A stretch of 58,831 nucleotides of DNA, filler included, from Dugesia japonica (lineage: Eukaryota), in the NCBI GenBank assembly GCA_001938525.1. It is 5 parts of 5 records of this genome, joined end to end, with 100 filler letters (N's around TTAATTAATTAA, not from the genome) between each part and the next. Parts side by side here need not be neighbours in the genome. Positions count along the whole stretch, not along the records: positions 35,289 to 49,136 come from MQRL01429821.1; 4 more parts are not named here. The stretch is one strand, 5' to 3'. The notes under the pieces were generated by a model. It saw only the letters and a program-made list of their open reading frames with translations. It was not told the origin of the DNA and did not search any database. Of this stretch, positions 26,768 to 52,218 are shown in pieces. How positions within the stretch are numbered: the stretch's first letter is position 1; each line of letters opens with the position of its first letter. Both the position numbers and the translations under genes were made by a program.

Positions 26768-29700
26768 GGCAACCACACTAGAACTGTTACAAGGCAACAG
26801 TATCAACGTAAAGCAATTTAAGATGCGTTACCAAAAAAAGCGCAAGAAAAAATAAATTTAACTTCAGAAAATATGATGGAAAAAGGACAGAAGAAGCTTT
26901 AAAATGATTTAAGGATATCGACGAGTGGACTATCGTTAACGATTTCAATTTGTTGGATATCTTTGATTTACTATCGTCAGATGAAGCAGGAGGTCTTTGA
27001 AAAGATTTAAAAAAAATTGAGATCACAATGGAGGAAGCCAAAAGATAGTTCACCGACACATTTATGATAAAAAATCTTTTTCAGAGCTGATTTTAGAATT
27101 AGCAATGACAAAGCAAGAAAAAAAGTTCGCAACATTAGAAATCAGAGCAAAAAATCTGATATATAATGTCATTAATTCAGGACTAANTAAAGATTAAATA
27201 ATTAATGATGTACTCTCAAAGAAGGTGAAAAATACAAAGTTGAGAGATACATTGACAACACGTCTTGATATCCAGATCACAGAAATAAGATCCCTAACAA
27301 ATATTTACGAGGACAAGGAACATTATCAATGAATTTCCGAAAAGGAAGATATCTGTATGATACAAAAAAGATGAGTTATGCAAATGTAAGGAAACTAATA
27401 ATTAAATAGAGTTGAACAGGATAGACATATAATACGTGTAAATAATTTGCCAGTAAAAATAGTATATTAGAAGAACACACAATCAGTGATGATGGAAGAT
27501 AGAACACAGGTGATAAGGTCAAAACCGACAGTATCGATTATATATTTGGTAAGATGATATTTTAATAGACAGAGAGGATTTCCAGAACCTCGTGAAGAGA
27601 AACTTCGAGAGGGACAATGTTATTGCTGCGAAGAAAGTGAGCATAAACGATACATTAAAATAAAAATGTTTAATTTGCGGCTAGTTTGGCCATAATATTA
27701 GATCTTATTTGGTATTACAGGGCTCGTCTAGTAGAAGAAACACTAAAATTTTGTGTATTCAATAGGAATTGGACGATTCAAAATAAGATGATGTGAGCGT
27801 GACAGATCATGATGTAGTAATGGAAAAACCCAGAACAAATCCATAATGATGAAAGAGGAGAGATGTTTGAAAAAGTAGATGGGCAAAAGTGGAGTAGATT
27901 AGATGTTAATGGAGTAGAGTTAGAGATATTGTGGGATTAAGGAGCTTTTGCGACAGTCATAAATGAAAACTATTGGATTAAAATTGGAAAACCGTTGTTG
28001 TCGATGTGCAATATCAGATTTAATGGAGCATTTAATAAGGAGAGAAAATAACCGTTGGGTATTGCAGAATTAAGTTTACATTGGAATAAGAAAGTCAGGA
28101 AAATTAAAATCATGATATGTAGACAGATCCATCCAGAATTAATAGGCGGTATTGATACAATGCCAAGTTTTGGAGTGAAATTAACAGAAATAAATAACAT
28201 CGAAAATGAGAGTCTGAAGATAACACATTCTTATAAAAATAGAAAAAATAACGCATTGAAGTTTTTTCAAGGAATAGATAACAGAAAAATGGTTTATTTG
28301 ATCCAGAATTTCAGTGAGATATTCATGGCTTTAAAGTTCGATATTGGGCATACGAAAAAAGTAATACATGAAATAAAAGTTAAAAAAGATCCAATGATAC
28401 AGCACCCTAGAAGACAGCCGACGCATTTAGAAATGAAAATTGAAGATGTGATTACAGAATTAGCAAGATTGATGTGATCAGCAATTGTAATAGTCCTTGA
28501 AAATTTCCATTAGTGATTGCGTGTACAAAGGACGGCTAGATAAGAATGCGCGTGGATTACAGAAAAGTGAGTTTGACGACAGGAAAAGTCTCTTTTCCAA
28601 TGTCAGATATTTAATTATTATTAGACTGTTTTTCTGGCTTGAAATTATTTTCATCGATTGATATGAGCCAAGCCTATTACCAAGTGGAGTTAGCGTAAAA
28701 GTCAAGGGATGTCACTNCTTTCAGTACAAAGGAAGGTCAATTCAGATTTAACGTATGCCTTTTAGATTAGCTACAGCACCGGTCACTTTTCAAAAGTTAA
28801 TGCATGAGTTATTAGAGGATTTAAATTTCAAAGGAGTTATTGTATATCTGGATGACATTCTGGTGTACGAAAAGACTTTGAAGGATCACGAAAAATGTTA
28901 GAGACAGTCTTTTACAGGATCAGAGACTCGGGATTAAGAATAAACCTGGAAACATGTAAGTTTTATCAGAAAGAATTGTTATTCTTGGAGCATTCAGTTA
29001 GTGCAACTGGTATACGCATTAATGAAGTTAAGATCCAAGAGATTAAGAATGTTATAGTTCCAGAATGTTCTTCAAAACTTCTTTTGTTTCTCGGACTAAC
29101 GAACAATTACAGACGTTTCATAAAAGATTATGCAAAGACAGTAGCTCCTTTATATGAAGCAACGTCAGGTTGCAACAAACCCTTAGTTTGTACAGAAGCA
29201 TTCCAGAATAGTTTCAATGCGTTAAAAGATAAGTTGTGTAGTGCTCCAGTATTAGAATATCAAAGGAAGGATCGGATGTTCATGTTAGATATTGACGATA
29301 GTTTTGGCGCTATAGGTGCAGTCCTTAGTCAATGCAAAGTGAAAAAGAAAGTGGTAATAGCGTATGGATCCAGATATTTGACATGCTCATGAAAAAGAAT
29401 ACTGTGTGACAAGAAAATAACTATTAGCTATAAACGAATTTGTACAATAATTCAAACAATATCTGTATAGAAAGAGATTTCTAGTAAGAACGGACCACAA
29501 AGCGTTGGTATTTCTGAACAACACAAAGAAACCAATCAGTTCACAATTCCAGACGTGGACGGCGAACTTCTTAGAGTATAATTTTGAACTGAAGTATAGA
29601 AAAAGCGAAAAAATTAACAATCCGGACGGATTGTCAAGGCTAAATAAAAGTTTGTGTTCACAATGTAGCATGAAACACATAGACTCAAAAGGAGAAAAAG

Positions 29701-30720
29701 CCAGAACGAAACATATCTATGGAAGTCAACATGAGACCGACACAATTACAATCATTTGACAAGCTCAGACCAAAGATTTAAAAATACAAAGCTGTTTAGC
29801 AATGTTGGGAGAAGAAAGTTTAAAGCCAAAAAATAGTAAACTAGGAAGCTACTGGAATAAACTGAAGCACGAATTAAAAATAGTGGATGATTTGCTAGTA
29901 GTGGAAAAAGAAAATAAATTTTTGTTAGTGGTTCCGACAAGCATAGTTGTTAAAGTTATAAAGGAAATTCATTAAGATTTATGACATGTGGGAGGAAAAA
30001 GTTATTTCCATACGTACAAGATAGTTTTTTCTGGCCAGGAATGCGCGAGACAATTAATAAAAGTAATGATAAATTTGAGATGTGTGCCAAAAAGAAAGTA
30101 GTACAAAAACTTACAAAAGAAAAACGTATACCGCTGAGAAACCAAATTTTTTTAGAACTAATCCTAGTGGAAATAGCTCATATGGAACAAAGCACGTCTA
30201 AAAAGAAATATGTGGTGGTAATTATTGATCGTTTTAGCAAACCAGTCAGCTAATCTGCAGTTTCAAAAATAGATGAAAAGACGATTTTTATGATAATTTT
30301 GAACAAATGAATATACCGTTTTGGTAAACCAAAATCCATTCTTACTGACAGAGGTAAAGTGTTTGAAAGAAACTAGAAAAATTTGGAATTGTACAGGAGT
30401 TTAATTCAATTCCAGTCAAATGGTTTGATAGAATGGATGATTCAAACAGTGAGCGGCATGATTACGATATCAATAAAAGGTAAATGTAATGAGAAAGATT
30501 GGAAGACATTATAACCGAGAGTAGAATTTAGTATTAATGCTGCAATACACGAGTCAACAAAATTCTCCTTTTGAAATCGTATTTGGTCGAACGATAAATC
30601 TGCATATCAAAGAGGAAACGTTCTCAAAAGAAAGGACAGACAGAGAAAAGATGAATGGATTCAAACGACAAAAGAATTTGCCGCGTTTAATTAAATGGAG
30701 CTACCATTCGCGTTTGATAT
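26768..30720 (+). mobile_element. Decayed Ty3/Gypsy retrotransposon (gag-PR-RT-RH-INT)
   Basis: PBS-like tggcaacc at ~26768, zinc knuckles, LWD*GA protease, YLDD at ~28843, RNase H DDSFGAIGAVL and RTDHKAL, integrase VVIIDRFSK and TDRG. Confidence 0.92.
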
Positions 30721-30729
30721 GTTAATGAG

Positions 30730-33700
30730 ACGAGATGCGAAAGAATTATGGGTGGNAAAATGCAAAGAAGATGTAATTTTGATGAACGAGGTCTGCAAAA
30801 AATGGTTTCGTGAATCATTTGTGATTTAAGAGACACTAGTGGATAAAATAACACTTTTGTCGAAGATTACATAAACCCCAACTGAAAAATATCGTATTTT
30901 GAGTTAAGAGAAAGAAAAATAGTAAATGAAGTTTTTACTAGTAAAAACATTTCAGATGTAATTGCAACAATATTTGTAATTAATGGTGTAAAAAGCGAAA
31001 AACTGAAAGAATCTTTTGTTCTTCAATCAGAACTTACTGATATTTAAAGACGAGAATTAGCTAACAATTTGGATAAATTGATACTGGCGTATACTGTTAA
31101 TGTGGTAAAAAAACAGTTATGCAAATACAGTGAAGAAAGATGAGTATCAGTCAAAGTTTTCAAAAGATTATCCATAAATGAATACTCAAAACGATCCAAG
31201 TACAAGAAGTCAATCAATTGTTTTCCAAGAGAATCAGTATTGCGCAAATGAAATTTAGACCCAAGGACAAGCGCAAAACAATTGTTTTCCTCGATACTCA
31301 ATGAAGTGTATAGCCAATAAGCTATATTGTGAACCAAAGGAAAGAATCTTCCTCACGAAGACGTTTTAGCAACGGTAGCATGTTTCTGCTGTAGAGATAC
31401 AAGACGTAGAAGAATGAATTGTCCATTAAAAGACAAATGTTTAATATGTGGAAAAGAAGGTCATAATTTTCGAGATTGTCNNNNNNNNNNNNNNNNNNNN
31501 NNNNNNNNNNNNNNNNNNNNNNNNNNNNNNAAGATATTATGTATTGCAGGAGAAGATGATATGTTATCTCACAGTGGTGAACAAATGGAGTATTTACACG
31601 ATGTTTCTTTAGATGATGATGATAAAAAACGATCAGCAACCCACTGCATACATCTCCTCAGTGAGGTTGNNNNNNNNNNNNNNNNNNNNNNNNNNNNNNN
31701 NNNNNNNNNNNNNNNNNNNNNNNNNNTTAAGAGAGATGGAAAAGAATGGAATTTGATCCGTTGCAATGAATATGGCATTGAGATGTTGTGGGATTCAGGA
31801 GCAGCAATATCAATCATGAGTGCGGTTGTGTGAAGAAGAATTGGATCATTTGATCTATCGTCGTCACACATTGTTCTAACAGGAGTGTTTTCTGAAAAAG
31901 GAGAAAAATGTATCGGGAAAACTAAACTGAAATTACAATGGAATGGGAAGCTAAGAGAGAAAGAAGTAGTAATTGTTAGAAATATTTATCCAAAATTTAT
32001 CGGAGGTATTGATATCATGAAGCTCTTCGGAATGAAAATCACTGAAGTTGATTTTATTAACTCAGACGATGGAAATCTATTACCAATAATACAGAAAAGG
32101 TGAAAATGACTTTAATACTTCAAATAAATGTCAGCCAAGAAGTAAGAAAAAGGATAGAAACTTACAAAAATTTATTTATGTCATCAAAATTTTATCTTGG
32201 ATATACGAAACTGATGCAACATCACATTGAAATGACAGGACCTTCGATAATGATAAACCCGAAAAGACAGCCAATGCACTTGGAAAATGAAATAGATGAA
32301 TTTTTAGAAAATTTTAGAAAATTAAATATTATAATCAGTTGCAAAAGTCCATGGTATTCCCCATTGGTAATTGTACCAAAGAAAGATGGGACGATACGAA
32401 TGTGTCTTGATTTTAGAAAATTGAATTCAATTACAGAAAAGTATTCGTTTCCAGTTCCAAATATTCAACTATTATTAGATACGCTTGAAAGATCAGTCTT
32501 ATTTTCTTCTTTAGATTTAGGGTAAGCATATTATCAAATTGAACTAAGCAAAGAATCAAAACTAAAGATGGCCTTTAGTAGAAAGATGGGTCAATCTTGT
32601 CTGAATCAAATGCCCTTAGGATTATGTACTGCACCACCAACATTTCAAAGCTTGATACATAAAATATTTGAAGGAATGTTGTACAAAGGAGTATTAGTAT
32701 ATCTAGATGATATTTTAAAACAAAAGAGGAGCACGACAAACGAGTTGGTAAAGTTTTTAGCTACTAAACGATGCGGGTTTAAAAATAAATCCAAGTAAAT
32801 GTGTGTTCAATTCCAAGAAGCCGAAATTTTTAGTACATACAATTAGCGCCAAAGGCATAGAGACAAATGACGAAACTATCAAAGAAATTCAAGAAGTTGT
32901 AACGCTAAAATGCGCCACGAAAATGCGAGCGTTCTTAAGATTAACAAATTATTACACACGTTTCATAAAAGATTATGCTTTACTTGCAGCATCATTGTAT
33001 GCAGCTACGACAGGACAAGAAAAGAACATTGAATGGACAAAATAATGTGAGGATAGTTTTCAATCTTTGAAGATAAAATTGTGTAGTGCTCCGATTTTGA
33101 CTTTCCCAAATAATAGGGGCGAAATGATATCGGATACTGATGCTAGTTTTGAAGCAATTGGAGAGGTTTTGAGTCAAATAACGTATAATGGATTGGAACA
33201 GGTCAAAGCATATGGTTCTTGAACTTTAAAAAATCACGAAAACGGATATTGCGTTACTCGCAAGGAATTATTAGATCTACATGAGTTTATGGTGTATTTT
33301 AAACACTATTTGTATGGCAAGAAATTTAGAGCAAGAACGGACCATAAAGCATTGACTTTTATGACGAAGAGTAGTAAGCCCATTATTTCTCAGTTTCAAA
33401 CATGGATAACAAATCTAGTAGAATTTAATTTTGAACTAGAATTCCGAAAAAGAGCAGCTCATAGAAATGCTGATGGACTTTCAAGGATAGGACAGAGTCT
33501 TGGTTCGCGATGTCAGACTATGCATCAAGATGCCAAAGGGGAACGATCTCGAGTTAAAAGAATCAACACTTTAGACAAAACAAACTTTGATAGAAGTACA
33601 GAGAAATGATCCAATAACTGGAGAAATCATTGAATATATTGAAAGTGGAATGATAAATAATAAGCTCAGAACAATGGTGACCAAAAGTAAATATTTTACC

Positions 33701-33965
33701 AAACTGGAAAAGTTTGAGTTGGATGATGAGATACTGATTATCAATGAAGAAGACAAGAAAAGAATTGTACTGGCAGAAAAATCGACAAATGACCTTATTT
33801 ATTGTATACACGATGCGTTATGTCATGTGGGAGGCCAAAAACTGACGGAGTATTTGAGTATAAGTTATTTTTGGCCAAATATGCAAAGAAATGTAGAACA
33901 TCAACTAAAAAAATGCATAATATGCTACATGCGTAAAACATACACTGGGCGAACAAAGGAAAAAG
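30730..33965 (+). mobile_element. Second decayed Ty3/Gypsy element of a related family, truncated in integrase
   Basis: CLICGKEGHNFRDC knuckle, LWDSGA, SPWYSPLVIVPKKDGTIRMCLDFRKLN, YLDD, DTDASFEAIG and HDALCHVG..C..C. Cut at ~33970 by hAT sequence. Confidence 0.92.
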
Positions 33966-33974
33966 TATTATTTA

Positions 33975-35141
33975 ACTTTCGCACCCCAATTAAATAAATA
34001 TTATTTTATGGCATGTGATTTATGGTAAAAAATAGTAAATAGGTTAAAAAGTTGTAAATCAAACAAAATTATTAAAAATGTTATTAAACATAAAATGAAA
34101 TCATATTTATTCACTTTGTTATTCTTGTTTTTGTTTTATTAATTTTTCGAATATTGGAAGTTTTTCGCTAATTGCAGTTCGCAGATCTGATTTTGGATTC
34201 AAGCAATTTCTATGCTTGGTTTTTATTGATAGAAGGGAATTAAATCCAGATTCGCACAAGTAAGTTGTGCCAAATGGAATAAGAAGAGATAGTGATTTCT
34301 TCCCCATCTTTGGGTACAAATTTCCTAAGTCTTCTCAAAATTGTTTAAAAATACGATGATTTAAAGAACATCCTCTTATCCAGTTGATAACCTTGACACA
34401 AGTATCAAGTGTTTTCTTTAATCAGTGCAAAGGGAACCAATAACTCTGATATGCAAATCATGACTAGCAAATAAATTCTCAGTCTCTGTTTTTTATCTTT
34501 TGCTGTCGTACTAGTTTTCAAAACAGGAAATCTTCAATAATTTTATTAATTTTGACGTATCTAATCATAGTCATAAATTGACTACAATTAGTGATATCGG
34601 TAGATTTATCCAATTAAAGGAATATTTTTACAGGACTATCTTTGATGTCGGAGATGACTTGATCTAAAATTTCACTACTCAATTCACAGATTCTTTTTTT
34701 GAATGATATTGTTTCATAAAAGAACTTGCTCAAGTTTTTTAGCTTCTATGCCGACAATAATTGTTGCCATTTCAAGAATGCATGGTTTTATTAAAGTTTT
34801 TCCAATTATATACGACTTCGTGTTTTTCGCTATCATATAAGCGACTTTACATGAAGCCAATAGTAATGGTTTGTCAACAGAAACATAACACAATTTTAGA
34901 AGAGTTCCCAAAGAATCAAAACTAGTTTTTTGCTCTTCAATGAATCAATATCCTGTTCTCTATTTTCAGAACCGCCATGTTTGCTCTTAAAAGGTTCTTT
35001 TAGTTTTAATGATTTTAAATTTGAATTAAAAAATTTGGCACTACAAATAATACATTGAGACCTTTGTATATTATCATTATTTGTTGTGCAAGTGAAACCA
35101 AACTGCACATACTCCTCATTCCACTTCCTTCTTTTTGACAT
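33975..35141 (-). mobile_element. Internally deleted hAT Buster/Charlie (ZBED5-like) transposon
   Basis: MSKRRKWNEEYVQFGFT..QCIIC, SCKVAYMIAK..IGKTLIKPC, QLDKSTDITNCSQ, and the dimerisation motif LIPFGTTYLCESGF. Confidence 0.9.
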
Positions 35142-39420: not shown

Positions 39421-39935
39421 ATAAAATAAGGTTTTTAAGATTTTCTAAATTACTAATTTCTTTCAATAACACTCATTATTATTTAGCAAGACGTTTGTAA
39501 ATATTTTGAAGCAATTTTTTGTTAGTAGCTATAAAAATAAGAGTAATGTAAACATCTTTATCTATTTCTATAAATGTTTCCACAGTGTTTCTGTTAATAA
39601 TCATTCCAAATTTTGTAAAATAATTGAATAATACTAAACCAAATCACATTTACAAAACGATACAAGTACTTAAATAATTAGTAACAAAAAAGTATTTCGA
39701 CCAATAAAATTCTGTGAAACTTTTTCAACAAATTTCTTTTTGAAATCAAAATGCAAAATTTCTAGATCACTTTACCCGCGGCAGAGGGATGATCCAGTGC
39801 TGACGTGTCCAACTACTTTCTGATATTGATTTTATAAAGTATTTTTTTTGTAGTCAGATAAATTTTTAAGAGTGCATTTCAGATAAACAACATTTTAATT
39901 AAAAAGATAATAATTAACAATTATTCATTAATTAC

Positions 39936-41327
39936 GTTTTATATTTCATTTGAGAAACACGATTTCGACATTGATCAATACTTAATGCCACCATAGATTT
40001 TAGATTTTTTAAATATTTATAATTCTTTGTAAACAAACTTTCAGACATTTTCTCCTAGAAAACATTAATAAATAAAATATTAATAAATTATAACACTTGT
40101 AAATAATTAAGAAAACATTGAAAGGATTTGTTACGTTCATCCCATTTAGATTCAGAATTTGCTAAAATTAATTTAAATTGTTAAACAAAATCAAAGAAGA
40201 ACAAAGATTCACGCGCAATAAAGCCTGTAAGAATTCTTATTCGTTCAGATGCTGATAAAAAAAATATGGACGAATCAGCCTCAGCATCAGTAAGTTGCAG
40301 CATATTACAAAGAATATTTTTAGCATTGGTATTACATTGCTCTTGTAATGAAATATNNNNNNNNNNNNNNNNNNNNNNNNNNNNNNNNNNNNAAACAATA
40401 ATTACATTTAATTTTGTATATCTAGTTCTGAAATCTTTGAAAAATTGTTCATCCTATCAACATATAAATTAGTTATGATAAATTTTATGTTACCAATGTA
40501 GTTATGCCGCTTTGTGCATTGACAACTAGTACAACTACATCAGCATCTTTGAAATATTCCTCCATTGAATTTTCATTTATAAATGTAGAATTAATTCCTG
40601 GAGCATCAATTATAACAATGTTATCTTTTAATAGTTCACATGTGTTTTTATCATAATACATGGTTATTAGAGAACCATTTTTCAAATGATTTGTTGATTT
40701 AATATTATTTAATTCTTTCAATTCTTCAATGCTCCTTGTCTAAAAATAAAATACATTTATAATTAATTACTGATTTATATTTACGATAAAAAATTAAACT
40801 TTAATTAATTTTGTTTTAATTTGATAACATTTAATTAAAATTATTTTATTTGAACTTTTATTCTTTAAAAAGATCGAAAATAAGAATGAATGATAAGAAA
40901 TATTTATAATAAATAAACCTAACCACAAAATCACTGGTTAATAATTATAGATTAATAATTATAGTTTTATACAAGTAATTATTAAAATATTTAAAAATAA
41001 ATTCACTTCTTTAGATCATTTTTTAGATAATTTGAATTATGTTCGTGAAAATTGTAAATTTAATAATGAATTATAATTAATGAAATATTGTTAAGTATAA
41101 TAAAGCAATTTAATTAATAAATAATTAAATTGTCTAAAATTTATCATTTCTATTGATAATAATCAATCAAATATTACAAACAAACCTCATTGTTTACAAC
41201 AAGATAATTTTCATTGGTCGGACTAGCTGTAATTTCAACAAAACAATTTGATGTTGATCCGAAATCTGTTGCTAAAATTTCTTTAGCTATTAGAGCATTT
41301 ATCAATGTTGATTTTCCAGAGGATACA
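39936..41327 (-). CDS. MFN: Mitofusin/Fzo-like dynamin GTPase exons (partial, possibly pseudogene)
   Basis: In-frame GT-AG exons 41186-41327 (VSSGKSTLINALIAKEILATDFGSTSNCF), 40494-40739 (CELLKDNIVIIDAPG..DADVVVLVVNA), and from 40453 (DEQFFK..), then IFFLSASE. These are colinear with the mitofusin GTPase domain. Confidence 0.82.
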
Positions 41328-43699
41328 CTGAATATAGAATTGTTATAAATAAATCAATTATTGGAAAATAAAACTTCATAAATGTTTACAAATATCCAAG
41401 GATTAAGTTTCTTTTTTAAAAATTGTATACCATGTTTATTTGTTATTATTCTTTTAGTCTTTATAATTAGTGGACATGTAAATATAGTATGTACAAGTTT
41501 CTTTAAAAATTATTGAACAATTCTAATTTAATAAAAACTAATATAGGATAGAATTTAATATAATTTCCAAATTAAATGAAAGTAAGTCTAAATTTAATAA
41601 ACAGTTTTATACATAAAAACAGTTGTTATACATAAGAAAATAAGTCAATTTTTACAAATAATAGAAAAAAATTTAATTTAATATTATATTTTAATTAAAG
41701 TTTACAATTATTATTATTAGTGTTATTAGGTAAAAAGTGGCGCGCTGAATCCCTTGATCTTCCTCCTCTCGAGGATGAAGTGATCTAGAAATTTTTTTTG
41801 GTCGACACGCATACGCGTGTATGTATGTAGAATATCAATCGAGCGATGAGACATTTATTGTCTGTTGCTGTAAGTATTTGGTTGGTTATTTATCTTAAAT
41901 TTATCTCAAACTGTTGTAATGGAAGAATTTAGTAATTTACAATTTTTAATAAAGAGATAAAATAATTTAAAACAATATAAAGTTATATATTTTCGATATT
42001 TAAAATAAAATATTATACTTAAAAATTAGTAAAAGATATATTCAAATTAATACAGTCTTGTAAATAAGCATATTTGCATCTCTCGGATCAATTCCAAAAA
42101 AAAACCAATAAAATTCTGATAAACATTGGTATAAGAAGAGACAGAGTAAATAAACTAATAAAAAATATGCCCTTTTCAACATATTAGACTGGACTAAAAT
42201 TTGGTATTTTTACAAAAATGATGCTCTACCTTGTTGTCAATAATGTAAAATATTAAATTTAATGAAGAATAAAAGTGTAGAAAGAAATTTGTTAGGGTGA
42301 AACACCCCAGTAAAGAGAGAAAAAGAAAAACAGACTAAAAGCAATAAGAAGAAAAAAGGAGGAAAAATACAATGAGGCCCTCAACAAATAGGCGATCAAC
42401 AAATTAATAATAAATTTAATTTGAAATGGAAAGAAAATGATTACAAATAATTAATTAAGAATATTGAAGAAGAAATTAGAAGAAATATGGAAAATAAGAA
42501 GAAAATAAATGATATCATTTAAATCAATATTTTGACTGTAACTTATACATTATTATATGGTTCCGTTATTGAAAATATAAGTTTCAACATTAGAAAATAA
42601 TGGTTCATCGTTGAAAGTACTAGCTTTATCATAGAAAAGTAATGGAATTATTAAAAATAAAAGTTTATCATAGAAAATACTTAATAGAACAAATATATTC
42701 ACTAATTATATTACATTTATTTTATACATGGTCATTGAATTTGTTTAATTAATTTGTTTAATTTAATTTTTTTAATTTGTAGTTTTATTCTTTTCTTATC
42801 TATTTTATACCATGTTGCTATGTTTTTAGTCATTTTTCATCATTTACCCTCATTTTCCTTATTTCCCACTATTTAGCCGTATTTAGCTATAATCATCTTA
42901 TTTAGCTATATTTTCTCTATTTTTTCCATCATTTTACGTTATTTACCCTTTTTAGCTACATTTATCTATATTTTAGTATAATTTCTACTGGGTCTTAATA
43001 TTTAATGAGTAATATTTAAAGATAAAATGATACATTAATACTGAATGATGGTGAGTAAGAGCTGATATGGCATGCTTCTTATTTAAAATAATATAATCAT
43101 TTCAGTCTATTTTAATCAATTGATTATTCTTCTGCTTCTTTGCTTGCTCATTAGCAATCCTGTTTGCTCTTTAGTTTCTTCGGCTTTATTTTCTTTTAAC
43201 TAGCTAATTATCAGTTACATTGTTAGTAAATAAGAGTTCAACATAGAAAATACTTGATGCATCATTAGTTATACTTGATTCGTCATTAAAAATTTTGATC
43301 TCAACATTAAAAATATAGGTTTAGTTCAAAATACTTGTTAAAAGGCAAATATGGGTTTTAACAAGAACATAATGGTTTCAATATAAAAATAATGGTCTTA
43401 TCATTGAATAATACCACTAAACTAGATATATGCAATAAACCAATTGTTGTAAGTAGGCTCCATTACATTAGCATTTATTAATATTTTCAACACTTAAACC
43501 AATATATTGACAAACAAGTAATACCTATTTTTATTATTATTATTTATTTATTCACCCATTCTACTTAAATTTTGTATTCACTTATCTTAACCAATTCTTA
43601 CAAGTAAATCAATACAACCATGTCATCTATAAATCCCTAAGTAAAAGTCACTATTTTTATTAAAAAAAAACACTAAGTAGATGTTTACTATGGTTAACA

Positions 43700-46600
43700 T
43701 TATTCTATAGTCTACCATCATAATCTATTTGATCTTACAACCAATGATACAGTAAATCCATTTATTTATTAAGACAACAATTTTGTCAAGACAGAGACAC
43801 AAAGTTAATCCATTAATCAAAGACACAGCAAAGCTAATGGATAGTGTAAACATATGTGATACAGCAAAAACCAATGTGTTACAAAAGAAAAACAATGTGA
43901 TACAGTAAACCAATGAACACTACACATTACATGATAGTTAGTATTCTATCACAGTACCTGAATGAATCAATTTGTTAAAGTAAATTATTTGACTTATTAC
44001 TAATTTATTAGTATAACATCCAAATTGTTACTATATATGCCCAATTTGTAGACACCTATGTATGAATTGTAACTACTTATGTATAAAGTGTAGCATGATA
44101 TATGCAAATTATAATCACCTATTGATTTTATAGAGATCATCAAAAGAAAAATATTAAAGTTAATTGTTGGGAAACATCACATAGAAACATCAAACAAATA
44201 ACTCATGCATATAAACAAACCCATACAAATTAGTGGCAATCCAGCAACTCCGGCTGCTCAGATGAGAAAACTGATGAACCTAACAATTCAGAACAACCTG
44301 ATCAATCCAAATGTATATTATTTGACTTCTCGTATCAATCAAAGCAATCTGACTTTTTATTATTCTATTTGACTTTTCGTATCAATCTGACTTTTATTAT
44401 TATTCATTTATTTTTGTACAAATCTTAATTTTATTTTTATGTACAAATCTTATTGTGGCAATATTATGTAATAATTACAACTTTACAATTTTTATGATAA
44501 TTTTACTTTATGTAACAATTCTATTTCAATAATTTCATTATTTCAACATAACTATTACTATATATCCTGTTTATTTTATTAGTATTATCAATTTTGTGGA
44601 AATACAAATTATTGATTAATAAATAAATATTATTACTTTAGTTAAATTATTACTTTTTTTAATAAGCTTTATTTGGTATACAATAGACCAAAACTAAATA
44701 AGCAACAAAAGTTTAGGTTTGTATAGATGTAAGAATTTTATTGGGTAATGGAAGTATAACATAAATGTTATCTGATTGGTTGAATCTTTATATAAAAATA
44801 TTGTTAATTTGAATATATTTTTACTATCATTTATTTTGGCTAATAAGACGTATAATGCAGAACGGTGCACAATTATTTCAAAGGTATTTTCTTTATTTTT
44901 CATTTATTTTCAAATAGTTTTACTTTTTATTAAATTAAGCATGAACAATGAATAAGCAGGGGAAGAATTCGTAAGGGAAATAATGACACAATCTTTAGGG
45001 AAATTATAATAAATAGGTTTTTAATTGTATTAATTTAGAAATTTAAAAATACATCTGATAATATAGAAAGAATAAACGAATGTCACAGTAGCGAAGGAAA
45101 AGAAGGAATTTAAAAAAATATTTGAAAATTTGGATGAAATTAGTGACAATTCTCCAACTCGTTTTAAAATACGCCGATTATCAAACGTAGCAAGTCAAAA
45201 GCGACTTGAAGAGAATGAACATTATATGTTGAAAAATGGACCGGTAACTCAAGAATTTAATGATGAAATAAATCAAAGATATAGAAATTTTTGATTTCAG
45301 TTATCAACAAATCATTTTATCTGTGATTACAAAGATATTATGAAAATATTTCATCAAAAAACTAAATTTTTTATTGGACAAGAAGAATTATGTCCTAATG
45401 GAAACAACGTAATGNAATGTTTTATTACGTTTCTAAACAATATAACCTGTCAATCTGTAAAGAGATTATTAAAAGTGACATCTGTAAAAATTATATATAT
45501 TTTTATTTAAATTGTAAAGAGTACTAAAATTATTATTAATAGGTATTAAATATAGTGATGTTACCGTAGAAATGAAGAGATGTAACAATGTAAATAAAGC
45601 AGTTACTAGTGGTATTAAGATAAAATACGGTTATCGCAAAAATTTGGAGGATGAAGCATTCTGGATTAGATTTTTGGAAAGTGGCACAATTGAAGAAGGT
45701 CAGGAGATGGTCGAATAGGAACGTCCACTTGAATATATCAGAATGCAATCTAAATTGCACTCCATTCTGAACATGAAAATTGGAAACCCTAAAATACCTC
45801 AATTCAACAAAAATTGGAAGATATATCTTTTCAATTGACAAGATCAGCGCACCAAAGTGTTCATAGGAGGCACAGGTAATAATTAATTACTAAATAATTA
45901 TTGTAAAATAATAATGATTTATTTTGGCTAAACAAATTTCGCTCTAAGTCATTTTGAAAATCCGATTCATGTTACGATTCGGCAAGATTTCAAAAAGATG
46001 GGCACAAATAGATATCAAAATGGTGGATGTGTTATTGATTATTTAATACTACACATGTAGGCACGCGAATAAATAATAAATTTAACAGATACCTCTTGTG
46101 CAACTTCAATAAATATGAAGTATGGTACAGGTACTATTCCAGCAAATACTAGAAATATATTTTGTTGCAATACAATTGAAGATTTTATTAATGAAAAATG
46201 GAACAAAGGAAGAGAACGTGCAATACGTCGACGATGTCACTTTTATTTATTCGGTTCTGGACCACTTTTTAAAGACGAACAATTAAGAGAAGCAACGATG
46301 AAACCTATAGTATCTAAATTTAATGATAAAATGGATGAATATTTACCACAAGACTTTGAATGAAGCTATATATGAGAACGTATAATGTCCCTCTTTAGGA
46401 CCACAAATAATGATTGATAGTTGTATTGAATTATTATTATTGTACTAATTTAATATATTTATTTTTAGTCTGCAAATGTTATCTAGCCAAAATGTGATCA
46501 ACAAAAAGATGTGATTTATCAATAAATTTTGTAAATTAAAATTGTGTTTATTTTGTTATATGTCACGTTTTGTTATTTTATAATGGAAATAGTATTTAAG

Positions 46601-48466
46601 CTTTCAAATTTGACTTAAGTTTGTATTTTTGTTTAAATTTAAGCTTTTCTAATAATTATTGAAAAATTTTCTACTTATTTATAATGTTTATCAATAGTTT
46701 TCAATTATATCAATAAAATAGGAAATGAATTTCGATTATAAGTAAAAATTACTTTAAAATTTTATTATACAAGTAATAATATTTCAATGTAAATTGTACT
46801 ATTTTAAATTTGAAATGTCAGTGTTTACTGTTGTCAATAATAATATTTTAATAATTATTAGTTTTTTTAATTTTTATCAATTTAAAATAATCATGATTTT
46901 TGTTTACAGTGTAAAGACTACTGTTTTATAATATAAAGCCTACTATTTTNAATTTTATATAGTCAATTATATTAAAATAATATATAAAGTCTATAATTTA
47001 ATGTGTTAATTGGGTTTTGAAAACTCATCGAATCATTAAAAATCAGAATTCAAATTCATTACAACGATTTATTAATATAAAAAACTATAACAACACTAAT
47101 TGAGCTTTTAAACAAATTAAATTCCTGTTTTAAATTGGTTATCGTTTCTTAAGATTTTTTTAAAATTTATTTAAAGTTATTTGATTTTATATAAAGATTT
47201 TTAAAATAAATTTTCTTTTTAATTTCAAAATTTAAAACAATTACTTATTCGTTATTTAATTTTTCATTTCAATTTAAATCTTTTTCAAAAAATATTTTAA
47301 GAAAAACGATCACCAACCACACAAAAATTTCAATTCGCTCAAAACATACTCACATACTGTAAAATTATAATGTTAATTGTATTAATTTAGATTTCGCTGT
47401 ATCAACAGTAAAAATTTGAAATTTTAACGATTTTTCTTTTTTAAAGAATCTTTAAGAATTAATATAAAAAAATTCAAAATACATTAAAAAAGCTACTCAT
47501 AAAATGTACTGTAGAAATAATGAGTTCAAGTTAAGAATGAAATTAAAAAATTTAATAAATTATATAATTATACTTAAACAATGAAAATCATTTCTAAAGT
47601 TTCTATTGACATTTTTACAAAAGGAAGCATTTTTCATTATAAGTACTTTAAGTAATGTATAGATAGTTTTCATTCTGGTTTTATTAGTGTAAAAATAATA
47701 TGATGAAATTACGATTAAAAATATAATGAATGATATATTGTTTCGAGAACCACGCATTTTCTTCAGTAAACCATATGTGAAATATGTTCAGATTTTAATT
47801 CTTAGTTGAATTGTTTAAAAATATTTTAAAAATTATTATTTTAATTATAATTTATAATTAATTTTATAATTATATTATTTCTTGAACTAAGCATTTTTAT
47901 ACTTCAAACCCTGCATGAAATGAGTTCAGTATTTTATTCTGAGTTCAAAGATACTAAATTTGTTTGTTTATCTAAATTATTTACGGATTAAATAATTTAT
48001 TATATTCAAGGTGGGGCCATTTTCTATCTTTTGAACCAAGCATATTTATACAACAAACCCTATACAACAAATGTTCAGAATTTTATTCTAAATCAAATCC
48101 TATCATTTTCAGAGCTATACAATAAGTTTTAACTGAGAAATTTGAAAAACCAGTCAAATTGTTTTTCCTGTTTTGCACTACTTTTGCCCAGAGAACCAAA
48201 AATATGCAAAAAAGGATCACATTTCAATTCTAAGACGGTCAATACAAAATTCGAATTAATATGATAAAATTTGACCGAAAAATTTAAAAACAAATTTTCG
48301 ATATTCGGCCTTCCCAAGCAAATTTTCGACCGATCCAACCCGATTTCTAAAACATTTTTCATGTATTCGTAACGTTCAATCAAAATTCTACTTTTCAAAA
48401 ACACCAAATCAGTCAAATTGTCAAAAACAGTCAGCGACGGGGGCTACTGTTCCCGTGCTACACTAT
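43700..48466 (+). mobile_element. Rep-encoding repeat element (candidate rolling-circle transposon or endogenous CRESS virus); left boundary uncertain
   Basis: Minisatellite, decayed Rep gene, ~140-bp-spaced subterminal repeats (47765, 47905, 48055) and a terminal hairpin at 48433-48459 followed by acactat. A homologous copy lies at 16123-17459. Confidence 0.6.
44941..46363 (+). pseudogene. CRESS-type Rep (HUH endonuclease + SF3 helicase), decayed, apparently intron-containing
   Basis: RYRNF*FQL (motif I), FIGQEELCPNGNNVMxCFITF (motif II region), Walker A VFIGGTG..G*TNFALSHFENP, Walker B-like GCVIDY, INMKYGTGTIPANTRNIFCCN (motif C) and AIRRR (Arg finger). Confidence 0.8.
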
Positions 48467-49289
48467 CTATCTATCTACTAATCATTGAGTCTCCTAAAAC
48501 CATTGAGTATCGAAAACGCAATAGAATACTCAGAAAACCATTTAATAATCTACACCTTATAGTCAAAAAATAAAAACATACAACAGTATTTTGATTTTAT
48601 TAACAATCAAATTGATTACTCGGTATTTAGATAAAAGAAGGTAGATGAGTAGAAGGAAGAGGAGCAAGCGGTGGGGTCGACAGATGATTATGAACGATGT
48701 ATATTTTCTGGTAAGGGATACATGGCAACTCTAATGATAAACTAGTACTTTATTGTTTTAAATTTTGAAACTCATTTTCTCTAACGAGGCTATACAATAT
48801 GTATAAGTTATAGTCAAAAAAATTGACTTTACTGACTGATAGTTAGGTATTTAAAAGAAAATAAACCCATACACAAACAAAGTGCACGCAAGGAACCGAG
48901 GAGCAAGAAGGGATGCAAACATATGATGATAAATGATATACTGTGTTAGTTAAAGATTAGGAATTTTAGGAATTATTTCTTGGCTTATTTTATGAAAAAT
49001 TATATGGTAACACTTTTTTCTGAGGTCGTCTCGTTTCAAAGATATACACATTTAAAGATTTGAAAAACACAAACAATTTCAATACGCATAATATAGAATT
49101 GCATGCAAAGAAAAAATCAAAAAAGATCATTTGAAANNNNNNNNNNNNNNNNNNNNNNNNNNNNNNNNNNNNNNNNNNNNTTAATTAATTAANNNNNNNN
49201 NNNNNNNNNNNNNNNNNNNNNNNNNNNNNNNNNNNNTGTATTTATTTCTCTTTTATATTTAATAGTAATATTCGATTGACTATTATTCT

Positions 49290-49879: not shown

Positions 49880-52218
49880 TCCACNNTCCTTATTTTTCTG
49901 TGACAATACTGCTCTACTTTTATCAAAACTGGCATCTGTTTCTAATATAAATTCTTTGTTTATTACTGAAAAACACAACATTGATGCAGCCGTTAGAGAT
50001 TTGATTCAATACACAACTACTCTGAGATCCTTAATTTACTTGCGTAGTTTTCTATATACTTTCTGTAATATTACTTTATGTAATATTAATTTCTGTAATA
50101 ATACTATTCTGTAATAATATTCCTAAGAAACCTCTCTGGATTAATTCTTAGACCAGCCTTCNTTTTTTCCGTCAATACTCTTTCAATTACTTCATAGTGT
50201 TGGTCTTTATTGTTCGTAAAAATCAGAATATCATCAAGGATGGTCAATTGATTCCGCCTACCACTTTTGCCATCATCTCTTAAAATGTCCCTGGTGCCAC
50301 TGCGATGCCAAATCGCATTCTATTTAAACAATATTGTATGTGCTTCTTTGAAAACGCCGTTTTCTTGATATTCTACTTCGAGCTCTACTTAATAGTACGC
50401 ATTTCCCAAATTTATTGAACTAAAATATTTGGCTCAATCTAACTTTTCCAGCTTGTCTTTTCGTTACTGCATTCAATTGTCTAAAATCCAAGCATATTCT
50501 TATGTCTTTCTTTTCCTTTTTCCAAACACAAATCAGTGGGGTATTCCATAGAAAGCTGCATTTCTGGATTATTATTCTCTAAGTGGTTTTGGATAGCTTC
50601 TTCATTTTTAGATTCTAAGTTCATTGGTTGTCTATACGGTTTTACATTGATTGGTTCACCACTTATGATTATTTTGTGTTTTGTCAGATTTGTGCGTCCT
50701 TCATCTTATTTATCTGCCATAAAAGCATCTTCTTTACTTTCAATTATTTTCAATAACCATTGATCCTCTTTAATCTTTAAAATATTTAAAGTTCTTGTCA
50801 ATCGCTCTCCTTTTTTAATTTGTCTTCCAAATTTTGCTTCAATATTATAAATGTAATTTTNNNNNNNNNNNNNNNTTTTGTTATTGATCTTTTGCATAAG
50901 CTGGTATCAAAAAATCTTCTGCATATCTATTCTTTCTATCAGATCTGGTGTTACTCTTTCAATAACTAAGAAAGTAATATATTTGCGAACTTCATCAATT
51001 ATCACTCTAATTCTAACTTTTCCAACAATTTCAAGTGTACTATTATTTGCACAACGCAATCTTTCATCACTAATTTCTAAATAAACTTCTTGCAATTTAT
51101 TAAAACAACTTAAACTCATAAAGTTGATTCTAGCCTTTGTATCTAATAGATATTCAACTTTATTTCCTTGAATTGATACCATAACCCTTTTAAGAACCTG
51201 TATACTTTTTCTGTAACTTTTCCGATATCATCCCACGTTTCGACCCCTTGAGGATAATTACTCACTTCATTTAACAATGGATGGCTCTAATCAACTCCTT
51301 TAATGGTGGACCCAAGCCTTTTTAGTAGAATTACTTTCATACAATTCTATATATCCATAGTTTGTATTGACATATTATCTTCAATTGTATATACTCAATT
51401 ATATTGGTTTCTTGATTGGTTTCTGCAGTCATAAATCTCTCACATGTTTTTTTCATTTTTAAATTTGTGTAGCTCTCTTCTACCCTATGTCCACCATTAC
51501 CACATCGTTTACACTTCACCTCTTGACATTACCTTTTAATATGGCCAACCTTTCCATAGCTAAAAGATTTTGATGGATTTATGTTTGGACAATCTCAGCT
51601 TATATGTCCAGTTTTATAACATGTCCAACACTCTAGCACTTTTTGGTTTAACAATTTGCTTTAGTATGACAAATTTTATGACATAACCAACATTTGATAT
51701 TTTGTTTTACCTTTCTTTATTCTACATGTCTATTCACGGTATGATTTACAGGTTTCTGATAATTTGGATCTGTAACTCTCGCGTACCTTCTAACTTGTAC
51801 CTAACACACAAATGTCATTGCTTCTTTAATTTCTTTTATATTTTTTTGTTTCTACAAAGTCACTACTTTTTCAAACTTTTTTTATCTGAAAAAAACTAGC
51901 ATCTTTGCTACCATTTTTCCTCAGTAAAATCTTTTTTTGTAAATAATCTTTTCACTAAATATTTTACATTTTTAAAATAAACTTAATTCTCCGCATTTCC
52001 ACGCCTGCAGTTAATCAAATTTTAAAAGTCTTTGATAATATCTTTCTCTATTTCAAATGCCAACAAATTTTAATCTAACAAACAAGAGACGCGAGTGATG
52101 TTTTAGGCTTCAAAGAGCAATTCAACCCACTCGATGAATTTTTCAATATCATCTCCTCTGCAGAATATTTTCGGCAATAACCTTTCTGTAATAGAATCGG
52201 TATTTACTGCTGCCACCA
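49880..52218 (-). mobile_element. Third decayed Ty3/Gypsy element (gag with ~4 CCHC knuckles, PR, partial RT/RH)
   Basis: ..taaCA|TGGTGGCAGCAG PBS at 52218, knuckles such as CKRCGNGGH, YLLDTKARINF protease, RMRFGIAVAPGTF and FILETDASF. Confidence 0.85.

What the first reader, a model, noticed from the sequence alone, without database searches (positions are those of the whole stretch)
45470..45935. Spliceosomal-type introns in a viral-type Rep, one splitting Walker A
Seen: the P-loop GGTG-x-G[K>stop]T is interrupted by a 45-nt AT-rich insert (45876-45920). It starts with a canonical G|GTAATA donor, contains an in-frame TAA, and matches the host intron size (40-61 nt in this window). Its AG acceptor is not intact. 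A second AT-rich gt..aatag segment (~45475-45542) separates HUH motif II from the rest, though its phase does not resolve, and a third may end at ttag 45038. Inference: the Rep was expressed through host splicing with several introns, implying long nuclear residence.
Basis: partly seen in the sequence, partly recalled or inferred. Interest (0 to 1): 0.7.

Follow-up and report, generated by a model that had tools for sequence, protein, structure and literature searches.

The report
Spliced, histone-tailed Rep inside a Polinton
The introns are real: they lie in a decayed copy of a single-stranded-DNA-virus replication gene carried by a virus-like jumping element (Polinton), where the gene family lost its DNA-nicking residues, kept its helicase motifs and ends in the same hairpin signal as the host's histone genes, so it likely served as a helicase expressed in dividing cells.

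Summary
Confirmed, with corrected coordinates, and part of something larger. The Walker A insert is a family-wide intron: 44 of 52 copies read keep GT and 49 of 52 keep AG at one site, while the interiors have diverged to near chance. The window copy has lost its acceptor by a 14-base deletion. The second intron is 45491-45542 and is in phase; one probable-RNA contig of this locus skips it exactly. Intron-less relatives, including the Rep of the planarian virus-like element PEVE, place the gain on one branch, with one precise loss. On that branch the HUH histidine (37 of 37 copies) and catalytic tyrosine (35 of 36) are gone, helicase motifs stay under purifying selection, and a 44-base cassette matching host histone 3' ends follows the stop codon (42 of 44 copies; 0 of 22 relatives). 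Eight contigs join such Reps to integrase, pPolB, ATPase-like or TBP-like genes, and copies end in a Polinton-type terminus. Best reading: a Polinton captured a PEVE-like Rep as a helicase, likely expressed through histone-type 3' processing (untested). The scan earlier noted histone hairpins in an oyster Polinton.

The parts
44645..48479 (+). Remnant of the right arm of a Polinton-type element (left part missing); left limit is only where similarity to sibling L146 stops
   Evidence: Chain of sibling matches 44645-45290, 46402-47004, 47361-48141, 47884-48473; terminus at 48479; no left end found on this contig
44884..44939 (+). Probable further GT-AG intron (56 bases) near the 5' end of the gene; unverified
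   Evidence: GT..AG here and a 52-base GT..AG at the same place in L146
45000..45038 (+). Probable intron (39 bases); donor non-canonical in the window, phase unresolved
   Evidence: GT at this position in L011/L146, AG acceptor in the window and L005; 13% G+C
45039..45490 (+). Exon with Rep motif I (45277-45291) and a motif II region without its first histidine (45409-45423); holds a frameshift and a stop
   Evidence: Translation; motif survey
45491..45542 (+). Intron between motifs II and III, 52 bases, phase 1; TT donor in the window
   Evidence: Family table; contig of run X8, 357 of 358 bases identical to the window, skips it exactly; run X2 holds the unspliced allele
45543..45875 (+). 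Exon: motif III without the catalytic tyrosine (45578-45580), oligomerisation region, first half of Walker A; two stops
   Evidence: 35% identity to PEVE Rep over this and the next exon, E 4e-46, with the gap at the insert
45876..45923 (+). Remnant of the Walker A intron (phase 1); acceptor removed by a 14-base deletion
   Evidence: contig of run X9 identical to the window is unspliced here
45924..46363 (+). Last exon: rest of the SF3 helicase (Walker B, motif C, arginine finger regions); three stops before the true stop
   Evidence: 152 matches among 150 scored of 667 candidates in the genome
46373..46416 (+). Histone-type 3' cassette: upstream motif, 6-pair stem with 4-base loop (46387-46402, two stem bases altered in the window so it folds poorly), downstream motif
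47005..47360 (.). Unrelated ~350-base repeat inserted into this copy
   Evidence: Absent from siblings L146, L147, L148, L136, L140; many copies elsewhere
47884..48479 (+). Terminal region ending in a Polinton-type terminus (reverse complement begins AGTAG)
   Evidence: Matches L151 to its end; related termini with unrelated flanks; 6-bp target-site duplication around a 323-base derivative

Best explanation
The locus is a decayed copy of a Rep gene with real spliceosomal introns, carried by a Polinton/Maverick family that likely captured it from a PEVE-like single-stranded DNA virus and likely used it as a plain SF3 helicase, with an mRNA that would end in a histone-type stem-loop. Shown: the introns, their fixed sites, the loss of the HUH histidine and catalytic tyrosine across the clade, kept helicase motifs under purifying selection, the 3' cassette shared with host histone genes and with pPolB genes, and physical linkage of family members to Polinton genes and termini. 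Inferred: direction of capture (virus to Polinton), one gain of the two core introns on the stem of the clade with later subfamily-specific gains near the N-terminus, loss of the Walker A intron in L006 through a spliced RNA, helicase function beside pPolB (the route by which papillomavirus E1 and polyomavirus large T are thought to have arisen; recalled), and SLBP-dependent, S-phase-linked expression, which in a planarian would mean stem cells. The window copy itself cannot make the protein (six stops between motif I and the C-terminus, a frameshift, a lost acceptor) but seems still to be transcribed and partly spliced.
For: Rep identity: profile of 73 relatives hits PCV2 Rep (7LAR) over its length, E 1.5e-20; closest named relative is PEVE Rep (P0007), 35% identical to the window exons. 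Introns; exact 52-base skip in a contig of this locus, no such joint in runs X1 and X2. Gain and loss: intron-less L055, L056, L079, L080, L161 are sister to the clade; two changes suffice; AU test rejects the intron copies as a clade without L006, p 0.0018. Dead nuclease: first His absent in 37 of 37, Tyr absent in 35 of 36, against His in 20 of 20 and Tyr in 19 of 20 intron-less relatives; Walker B, motif C and arginine finger patterns in 45, 44 and 44 of 58 decayed copies; median pN/pS 0.27 over 55 pairs with pS 0.78. Cassette: 42 of 44 clade copies with enough 3' sequence, 0 of 22 relatives (labels corrected); same cassette after host H3 and H2B genes (8 of 30 top histone loci) and an H4 gene and after pPolB genes; 377 pattern matches against 0 for the control; host encodes SLBP (4 matches over cut-off); the C. 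elegans histone loop is also CTTT (PMC1924863, passages). Polinton: 8 contigs join an intron-clade Rep to integrase, pPolB, ATPase-like, TBP-like or neighbouring Polinton genes; 6 of 20 copies examined have a same-strand terminus 1.3-4.2 kb downstream; 484 exact termini against 0 control; 6-bp duplication.
Against: No complete element was seen: the assembly is fragmented, no left terminus was found for any Rep copy, and the window's own subfamily showed no Polinton core gene beside the Rep; its link rests on the terminus and on the tree. 14 of 20 copies examined had no terminus downstream, five of them with 2 kb or more of sequence. The splice evidence is one contig at depth 3.2 from a run only guessed to be RNA, at a TT donor; no RNA junction independent of L006's DNA form was found for the Walker A intron. 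Rfam did not call Histone3 on 17 Rep loci or on the window (host histone loci were not scanned), pair covariation is not above shuffles, and no U7 snRNA was found. 22 of 30 top histone loci lack the hairpin (variants, fragments or pseudogenes not sorted). Clade support fell from 97/96 to 89/97 in the smaller tree, the root is a midpoint, and the AU group was named after the first tree was seen. One copy (L057) keeps the tyrosine. Helicase activity and 3' ends were not measured.
Confidence: 0.72

Rival explanations
1. The introns and the Polinton link are as described, but the hairpin cassette is not used for histone-type processing: it was picked up once and is kept for another purpose (RNA stability, an SLBP decoy, a DNA signal), and the mRNAs are polyadenylated and not cell-cycle linked.
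For: No U7 found; Rfam silent; no 3'-end data; replication-dependent histone genes lack introns (recalled), so splicing plus stem-loop processing would be unusual; oligo-dT reads pile on the cassette from other transcripts.
Against: All three parts of the cassette and their spacing match host histone genes, just after the stop codon, in subfamilies whose synonymous sites are saturated, and again after pPolB; SLBP is present.
Confidence: 0.14
2. The Rep belongs to an independent PEVE/PIVE-like virus or element that nested repeatedly in Polintons, and is not a Polinton gene.
For: Nesting is common here; L055 shows an intron-less Rep abutting pPolB while its 89%-identical relative L056 is followed by an E1/NS1-like helicase; no full element seen.
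Against: The same gene order (ATPase-like, TBP-like, small genes, Rep) recurs in two subfamilies (C589031, C628734); termini follow on the same strand at similar distances with shared blocks between subfamilies; a nuclease-dead Rep could not replicate a single-stranded genome alone; no NS1-like gene was seen beside an intron-clade Rep.
Confidence: 0.08
3. The protein is the transposase of a rolling-circle transposon (Helitron- or Replitron-like) and the hairpin is its 3' terminal signal.
For: High copy number; similarity between distant subfamilies often stops at the cassette, as at a Helitron end.
Against: Catalytic His and Tyr are lost; subfamilies share sequence for 1-2 kb past the hairpin up to a Polinton-type terminus; the cassette is the host histone signal; Replitrons lack a helicase (PMC10288648, passages).
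Confidence: 0.04
4. The inserts are post-insertion indels or low-complexity decay, not introns.
For: The window copy has a defective splice site at each of the three inserts.
Against: Conserved GT/AG with diverged interiors in over 50 copies, exact intron-less forms, an exact skip in a contig.
Confidence: 0.02

Closest known systems
[quoted passage not shown]
   Same: Closest named protein; 35% identical to the window exons, 45% to intron-less L055. Intron-less relatives here sit beside an E1/NS1-like helicase, the kind of gene PMC3198968 (section 8 read) shows for PEVE/PIVE.
   Different: PEVE Rep keeps HUH and YxxK; the window's clade has lost them, has core introns, a new N-terminal region, a histone cassette and Polinton neighbours. 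The PEVE paper could not be read, so whether it reports splicing is unknown to me.
Polinton/Maverick elements
   Same: AG...CT termini, 6-bp target-site duplication, integrase, pPolB and ATPase-like neighbours (definition from PMC8097293 and PMC6431247, passages).
   Different: Intact vertebrate Mavericks are reported as intron-less (PMC8097293, passages). Here the Rep and small neighbouring genes have short host-type introns, the element carries a CRESS-derived Rep and a TBP-like gene, and pPolB and Rep end in histone cassettes. Introners in dinoflagellate Maverick-like proviruses (PMC11957031, passages) are mostly post-integration insertions of repeated elements; these introns are ancestral to a clade and their interiors are not alike.
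Replication-dependent histone mRNA 3' end (stem-loop, SLBP, downstream element)
   Same: 6-pair stem, 4-base loop, conserved flanks and a downstream motif as in host H3, H2B, H4 genes; same loop as C. elegans.
   Different: Follows non-histone, intron-bearing genes of a mobile element; PMC4604434 (abstract start in the search listing only) calls histone mRNAs the only known non-polyadenylated cellular mRNAs. Use not tested.
Papillomavirus E1 and polyomavirus large T (inactive HUH fold plus SF3 helicase; recalled)
   Same: Same inferred conversion of a Rep into a helicase on moving to a double-stranded replicon; both appear among Foldseek hits of the L055 model.
   Different: Independent and much younger event; sequence still clearly CRESS-like.
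Replitrons and Helitrons
   Same: Multi-copy eukaryotic elements with a Rep-family protein.
   Different: Replitrons lack a helicase and have short direct repeats; Helitrons have a Y2 Rep and SF1B helicase (PMC10288648, passages). This protein has an SF3 helicase and a dead nuclease.

Membership tests
Spliceosomal (GT-AG) intron | Conserved GT and AG at a fixed codon position with a free interior | tested here: met
   (family); the window copy itself has one defective end at each site
Spliceosomal (GT-AG) intron | Removed from RNA | tested here: inconclusive
   One contig of a run guessed to be RNA skips 45491-45542 exactly; none in X1 or X2; no independent junction for the Walker A intron
CRESS-type Rep | HUH domain, oligomerisation domain and SF3 helicase in one protein | tested here: met
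   on intron-less L055; links the window to PEVE Rep
CRESS-type Rep | Catalytic HUH/HUQ histidine and motif III tyrosine | tested here: not met
   Absent in 37 of 37 and 35 of 36 clade copies; present in the intron-less relatives
PEVE/PIVE-like element | Rep paired with an E1/NS1-like helicase gene | tested here: not met
   Seen for intron-less L056, L104, L164, not beside any intron-clade Rep among the loci held
Polinton/Maverick | AG...CT termini and 6-bp target-site duplication | tested here: met
   the duplication was seen on one 323-base derivative only; window terminus is a variant at 48479
Polinton/Maverick | Integrase and protein-primed PolB in the element | tested here: met
   For other subfamilies: rve E 1.2e-6 and 1.1e-7 (just under the curated cut-off) on Rep-bearing contigs C589031 and C621699; pPolB beside Rep in L061, L067, L035. 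Not seen beside the window copy
Polinton/Maverick | Packaging ATPase, capsid proteins, protease | tested here: inconclusive
   ATPase by a weak A32 hit (E 0.008) on a homologue; capsid-like and PZ-like names are my recall, Pfam gave none; protease not sought
Polinton/Maverick | Complete element with both inverted termini | tested here: inconclusive
   No left end found; contigs too short
Histone mRNA 3' end | 16-base stem-loop with conserved flanks just after the stop, matching the host's histone genes | tested here: met
   the window's own stem is damaged
Histone mRNA 3' end | Rfam Histone3 match | tested here: not met
   No match on 17 Rep loci or the window; host histone loci were not scanned, so the model's reach in this organism is unknown
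Histone mRNA 3' end | SLBP binding, cleavage after the hairpin, S-phase regulation | not testable with these tools
   SLBP gene present; U7 not found
Replitron / Helitron | Active HUH transposase without SF3 helicase; direct-repeat or hairpin-CTRR ends | tested here: not met

The most novel reading that the evidence does not exclude
A planarian Polinton lineage turned a single-stranded-DNA-virus Rep into its replicative helicase and routes both that mRNA and its DNA polymerase mRNA through the host's SLBP histone pathway, making spliced, non-polyadenylated, S-phase-restricted mRNAs that confine its replication to dividing stem cells, while gaining new introns subfamily by subfamily.
Probability: 0.45. 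Interest if true: 0.88.

Novelty: new variant of a known kind. Interest (0 to 1): 0.76.

Why it matters
It would join three things not expected together: a Polinton gene with heritable spliceosomal introns, a captured CRESS Rep caught in the conversion from initiator to helicase, and the histone 3'-end signal on mobile-element replication genes. The family gives a tractable series for intron gain and loss (intron-less outgroups, shared core introns, subfamily-specific ones, one exact loss), and the histone cassette makes a direct test of how an endogenous DNA virus times itself to stem-cell division, in an animal where RNAi and sorting of dividing cells are routine.

Tried and rejected
Pfam and the word-indexed protein search found nothing with the window's read-through frame; identity came through intron-less L055. 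A single-sequence fold of L055 was poor (pLDDT 32); the alignment-based one was good (92). No relative in IMG/VR viral contigs. No RNA holder listed for the stretch; raw RNA runs X21 and X22 (6% and 25% read) gave 24 and 105 laid reads, mostly under 90% alike, and no junction: no evidence either way. The Walker A joint in X10, X11 and X1 equals L006's DNA form, private 7-base deletion included, so I do not count it as splicing. My first reading of the 3' hairpin as a Helitron-like end was dropped once host histone genes showed it. The site-2 regex was too loose (226 rows) and was replaced. Automatic labels miscalled L006, L079, L080, L161, L102_3104 and L112 as intron-bearing; corrected and re-run. 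U7 searches were inconclusive: two hits under the cut-off and a pattern no commoner than its control. L055 as the ancestral Polinton-Rep junction was not accepted, since L056 has a different neighbour. The conserved N-terminal region of the clade remains unidentified. Literature: ten searches listed no paper on this family, on introns in planarian Polintons or on histone stem-loops in Polintons; one search showed 25 of 346 and 25 of 43; the PEVE paper and Repbase entries were not available, so prior description there is not excluded.

Full report
What is there. The stretch 45039-46363 translates into pieces of a Rep-like protein with six stops between motif I and the C-terminus and a frameshift upstream. 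The host genome is 854 Mb, AT-rich and fragmented; I take it to be a planarian because the closest named protein is from a planarian element and earlier notes on this genome say so (unchecked).

The family. A DNA search gave 42 matches (40 of 156 candidates scored) and a protein search with the last exon 152 (150 of 667 scored). The closest siblings carry a 59-base GT-AG intron in Walker A; the window lacks 14 bases that cover its acceptor. Of 52 genuine copies read, 44 have GT, 49 AG and 41 both, at the same phase-1 position, lengths 41-59 (six spurious rows dropped). Interiors of eight subfamily representatives are hardly more alike than shuffles (0.61 against 0.56 +/- 0.05). A third (45000-45038) and perhaps a fourth (44884-44939) have support from one or two siblings only. 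N-terminal introns differ by subfamily: in the 420 bases before motif I, L154, L110, L069 and L071 show two, L023 three, L013 and L070 one, and L058, L065 and L072 none (picked by eye, not checked against RNA).

RNA. No holder was on record as RNA. In run X8 (RNA is a guess) one 358-base contig, 357 bases identical to the window, skips 45491-45542 exactly. Run X2 (DNA guessed) holds the unspliced allele with the TT donor, and neither X1 nor X2 shows that joint. So this locus is probably still spliced there, at a non-canonical donor or from another allele. A contig of X9 identical to the window runs unspliced through the Walker A intron, as expected with the acceptor gone. The Walker A joint in X1, X10 and X11 is the DNA form of L006 and is not counted.

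What protein. Intron-less L055 has an open Rep frame. A profile of it and 72 relatives matches PCV2 Rep over its length (E 1.5e-20), and its model (pLDDT 92) matches CRESS Reps, with PEVE Rep at 43% identity. P0007 is PEVE Rep and aligns to the window exons at 35%, with the gap at the insert. PMC3198968 (section 8 and passages read) describes PEVE and its integrated relative PIVE; the PEVE paper was not held.

Gain and loss. In a tree of last exons (110 rows) the intron-bearing copies form a clade of 59 rows (97/96) whose sister holds L055, L056, L079, L080 and L161, all intron-less at Walker A on inspection; L055 and L056 also lack the second intron and have the same flanking codons. With corrected labels (38 rows) two changes suffice, clade support is 89/97, and the AU test rejects the intron copies as a clade without L006 (p 0.0018; group named after the first tree; midpoint root). 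So one gain and one exact loss is the simplest reading. A more distant PEVE-like clade has an uninterrupted core but apparent short introns near its ends, so splicing as such is not special to the window's clade.

A dead nuclease on a kept helicase. The first histidine of motif II is absent in 37 of 37 readable clade copies and the motif III tyrosine in 35 of 36 (L057 keeps it); intron-less relatives keep them in 20 of 20 and 19 of 20 (counted by hand from the printed rows; unreadable or mis-anchored rows left out). Walker B, motif C and arginine-finger patterns survive in 45, 44 and 44 of 58 decayed copies, and pN/pS between 11 single copies is 0.27 (55 pairs, pS 0.78, uncorrected). The intron-bearing gene was therefore under selection as a protein while subfamilies diverged, most likely as a helicase.

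The 3' cassette. Just after the stop, 42 of 44 clade copies with enough sequence carry a 44-base cassette with a 6-pair hairpin, often twice; 0 of 22 intron-less relatives do. The same cassette follows host H3 and H2B genes (8 of 30 top histone loci) and an H4 gene, and pPolB genes (L224, L217, L281/L366, L299). The pattern occurs 377 times against 0 for its control. The loop is that of C. elegans histone genes (PMC1924863, passages) and the host has SLBP. Against: no Rfam call, no covariation above shuffles (66 of 500 as high), no U7. The window's own hairpin is damaged (-3.7 against -9 to -12 kcal/mol for four others).

The carrier. Subfamilies share blocks downstream up to a terminus found 484 times exactly (control 0) with unrelated flanks; a 323-base derivative has a 6-bp duplication, the Maverick hallmark (PMC8097293, passages). 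Six of 20 Rep copies examined, the window among them (48479), have such an end on the same strand; 14 do not. Upstream, contig C589031 reads integrase, small gene, ATPase-like, TBP-like, small intron-bearing genes, Rep; C628734 repeats the latter part in another subfamily; six more contigs join a Rep to such genes (C621699, C594177, C506039, C611522, C589977, C202577). No left end and no complete element were found, and the window's subfamily showed no core gene beside its Rep.

Mechanism and standing. The best account is capture of a PEVE-like Rep by a Polinton, loss of nicking, use as an SF3 helicase beside pPolB, gain of host-type introns and of the histone 3' signal that the element's polymerase also carries, giving expression in S phase. 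The first steps rest on sequence shown here; helicase use and S-phase control are inferred. SF3 helicases are listed among replication genes of Polinton-like viruses, and HUH genes among Mriyavirus-like ones (bioRxiv 10.64898/2026.06.19.733378, passages); intact vertebrate Mavericks are reported intron-less; introners occur in dinoflagellate Maverick-like proviruses (PMC11957031, passages). Passages of PMC11296320, PMC13525598, PMC6431247 and bioRxiv 10.64898/2026.10.14.759114 did not mention this case; no supplements were read, and those of the last may cover flatworm histone ends. Ten searches listed no description of it, but the PEVE paper and Repbase were out of reach. An earlier scan note reports histone hairpins in an oyster Polinton (not tested here); it came after my own reading and is not independent proof.

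Noticed in passing
L224, L217, L366:5015, L299, L297: pPolB genes of a Polinton family in this genome end in the histone-type cassette; other unidentified genes do too (L200, L202, L209, L215, L285, L292).
   Followed up: partly
L359:4831-5085 (-), L156:1693-2172: The Polinton family carries a TBP-like gene (Pfam TBP E 2.4e-8) next to its ATPase-like gene; 2319 first-look candidates for that stretch.
   Followed up: partly
L006: Same subfamily as the window but exactly without the Walker A intron, with a private 7-base deletion nearby and a truncated 3' end; present as DNA. Looks like intron loss through spliced RNA.
   Followed up: yes
window 45491-45542: A contig of this locus skips an intron whose donor is TT in the assembly and in run X2: possible splicing at a TT donor.
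   Followed up: partly
L094-L109, L164, L056: Many PEVE/PIVE-like elements with open Rep cores, E1/NS1-like helicases, tandem arrangements (L099, L102, L104) and, in L109, a parvovirus VP1-like phospholipase ORF.
   Followed up: partly
L055:645-1205, L164:1769-2062, L105:6114-6518, L358:2819-3115, L361:1576-1884, L292:1027-1725: An unnamed ORF occurs both beside PEVE-like Reps and among the Polinton genes, suggesting a second gene shared between the two.
   Followed up: no
L072, L073, L074, L154 upstream of motif I: A conserved ~70-residue N-terminal region is shared by most intron-clade subfamilies, truncated in the window and absent from L055; unidentified.
   Followed up: no
window 1804-2300: Decayed fragment similar to a capsid-like ORF of the same Polinton family, on another contig of the window.
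   Followed up: no
window 39935-41353 (-): Host gene pieces resembling a dynamin-like GTPase (mitofusin-like; name recalled), with introns of 40, 62 and 446 bases read by eye.
   Followed up: partly
window 27000-34000 and 50000-51500: Decayed Gypsy-like LTR retrotransposon reading frames (class recalled from motifs).
   Followed up: no
window 42515-43551 and 48753-48940; 47005-47360: Two other repeats; the first also abuts Rep-element fragments in L009 and L140, the second is inserted in this copy and in L163.
   Followed up: no
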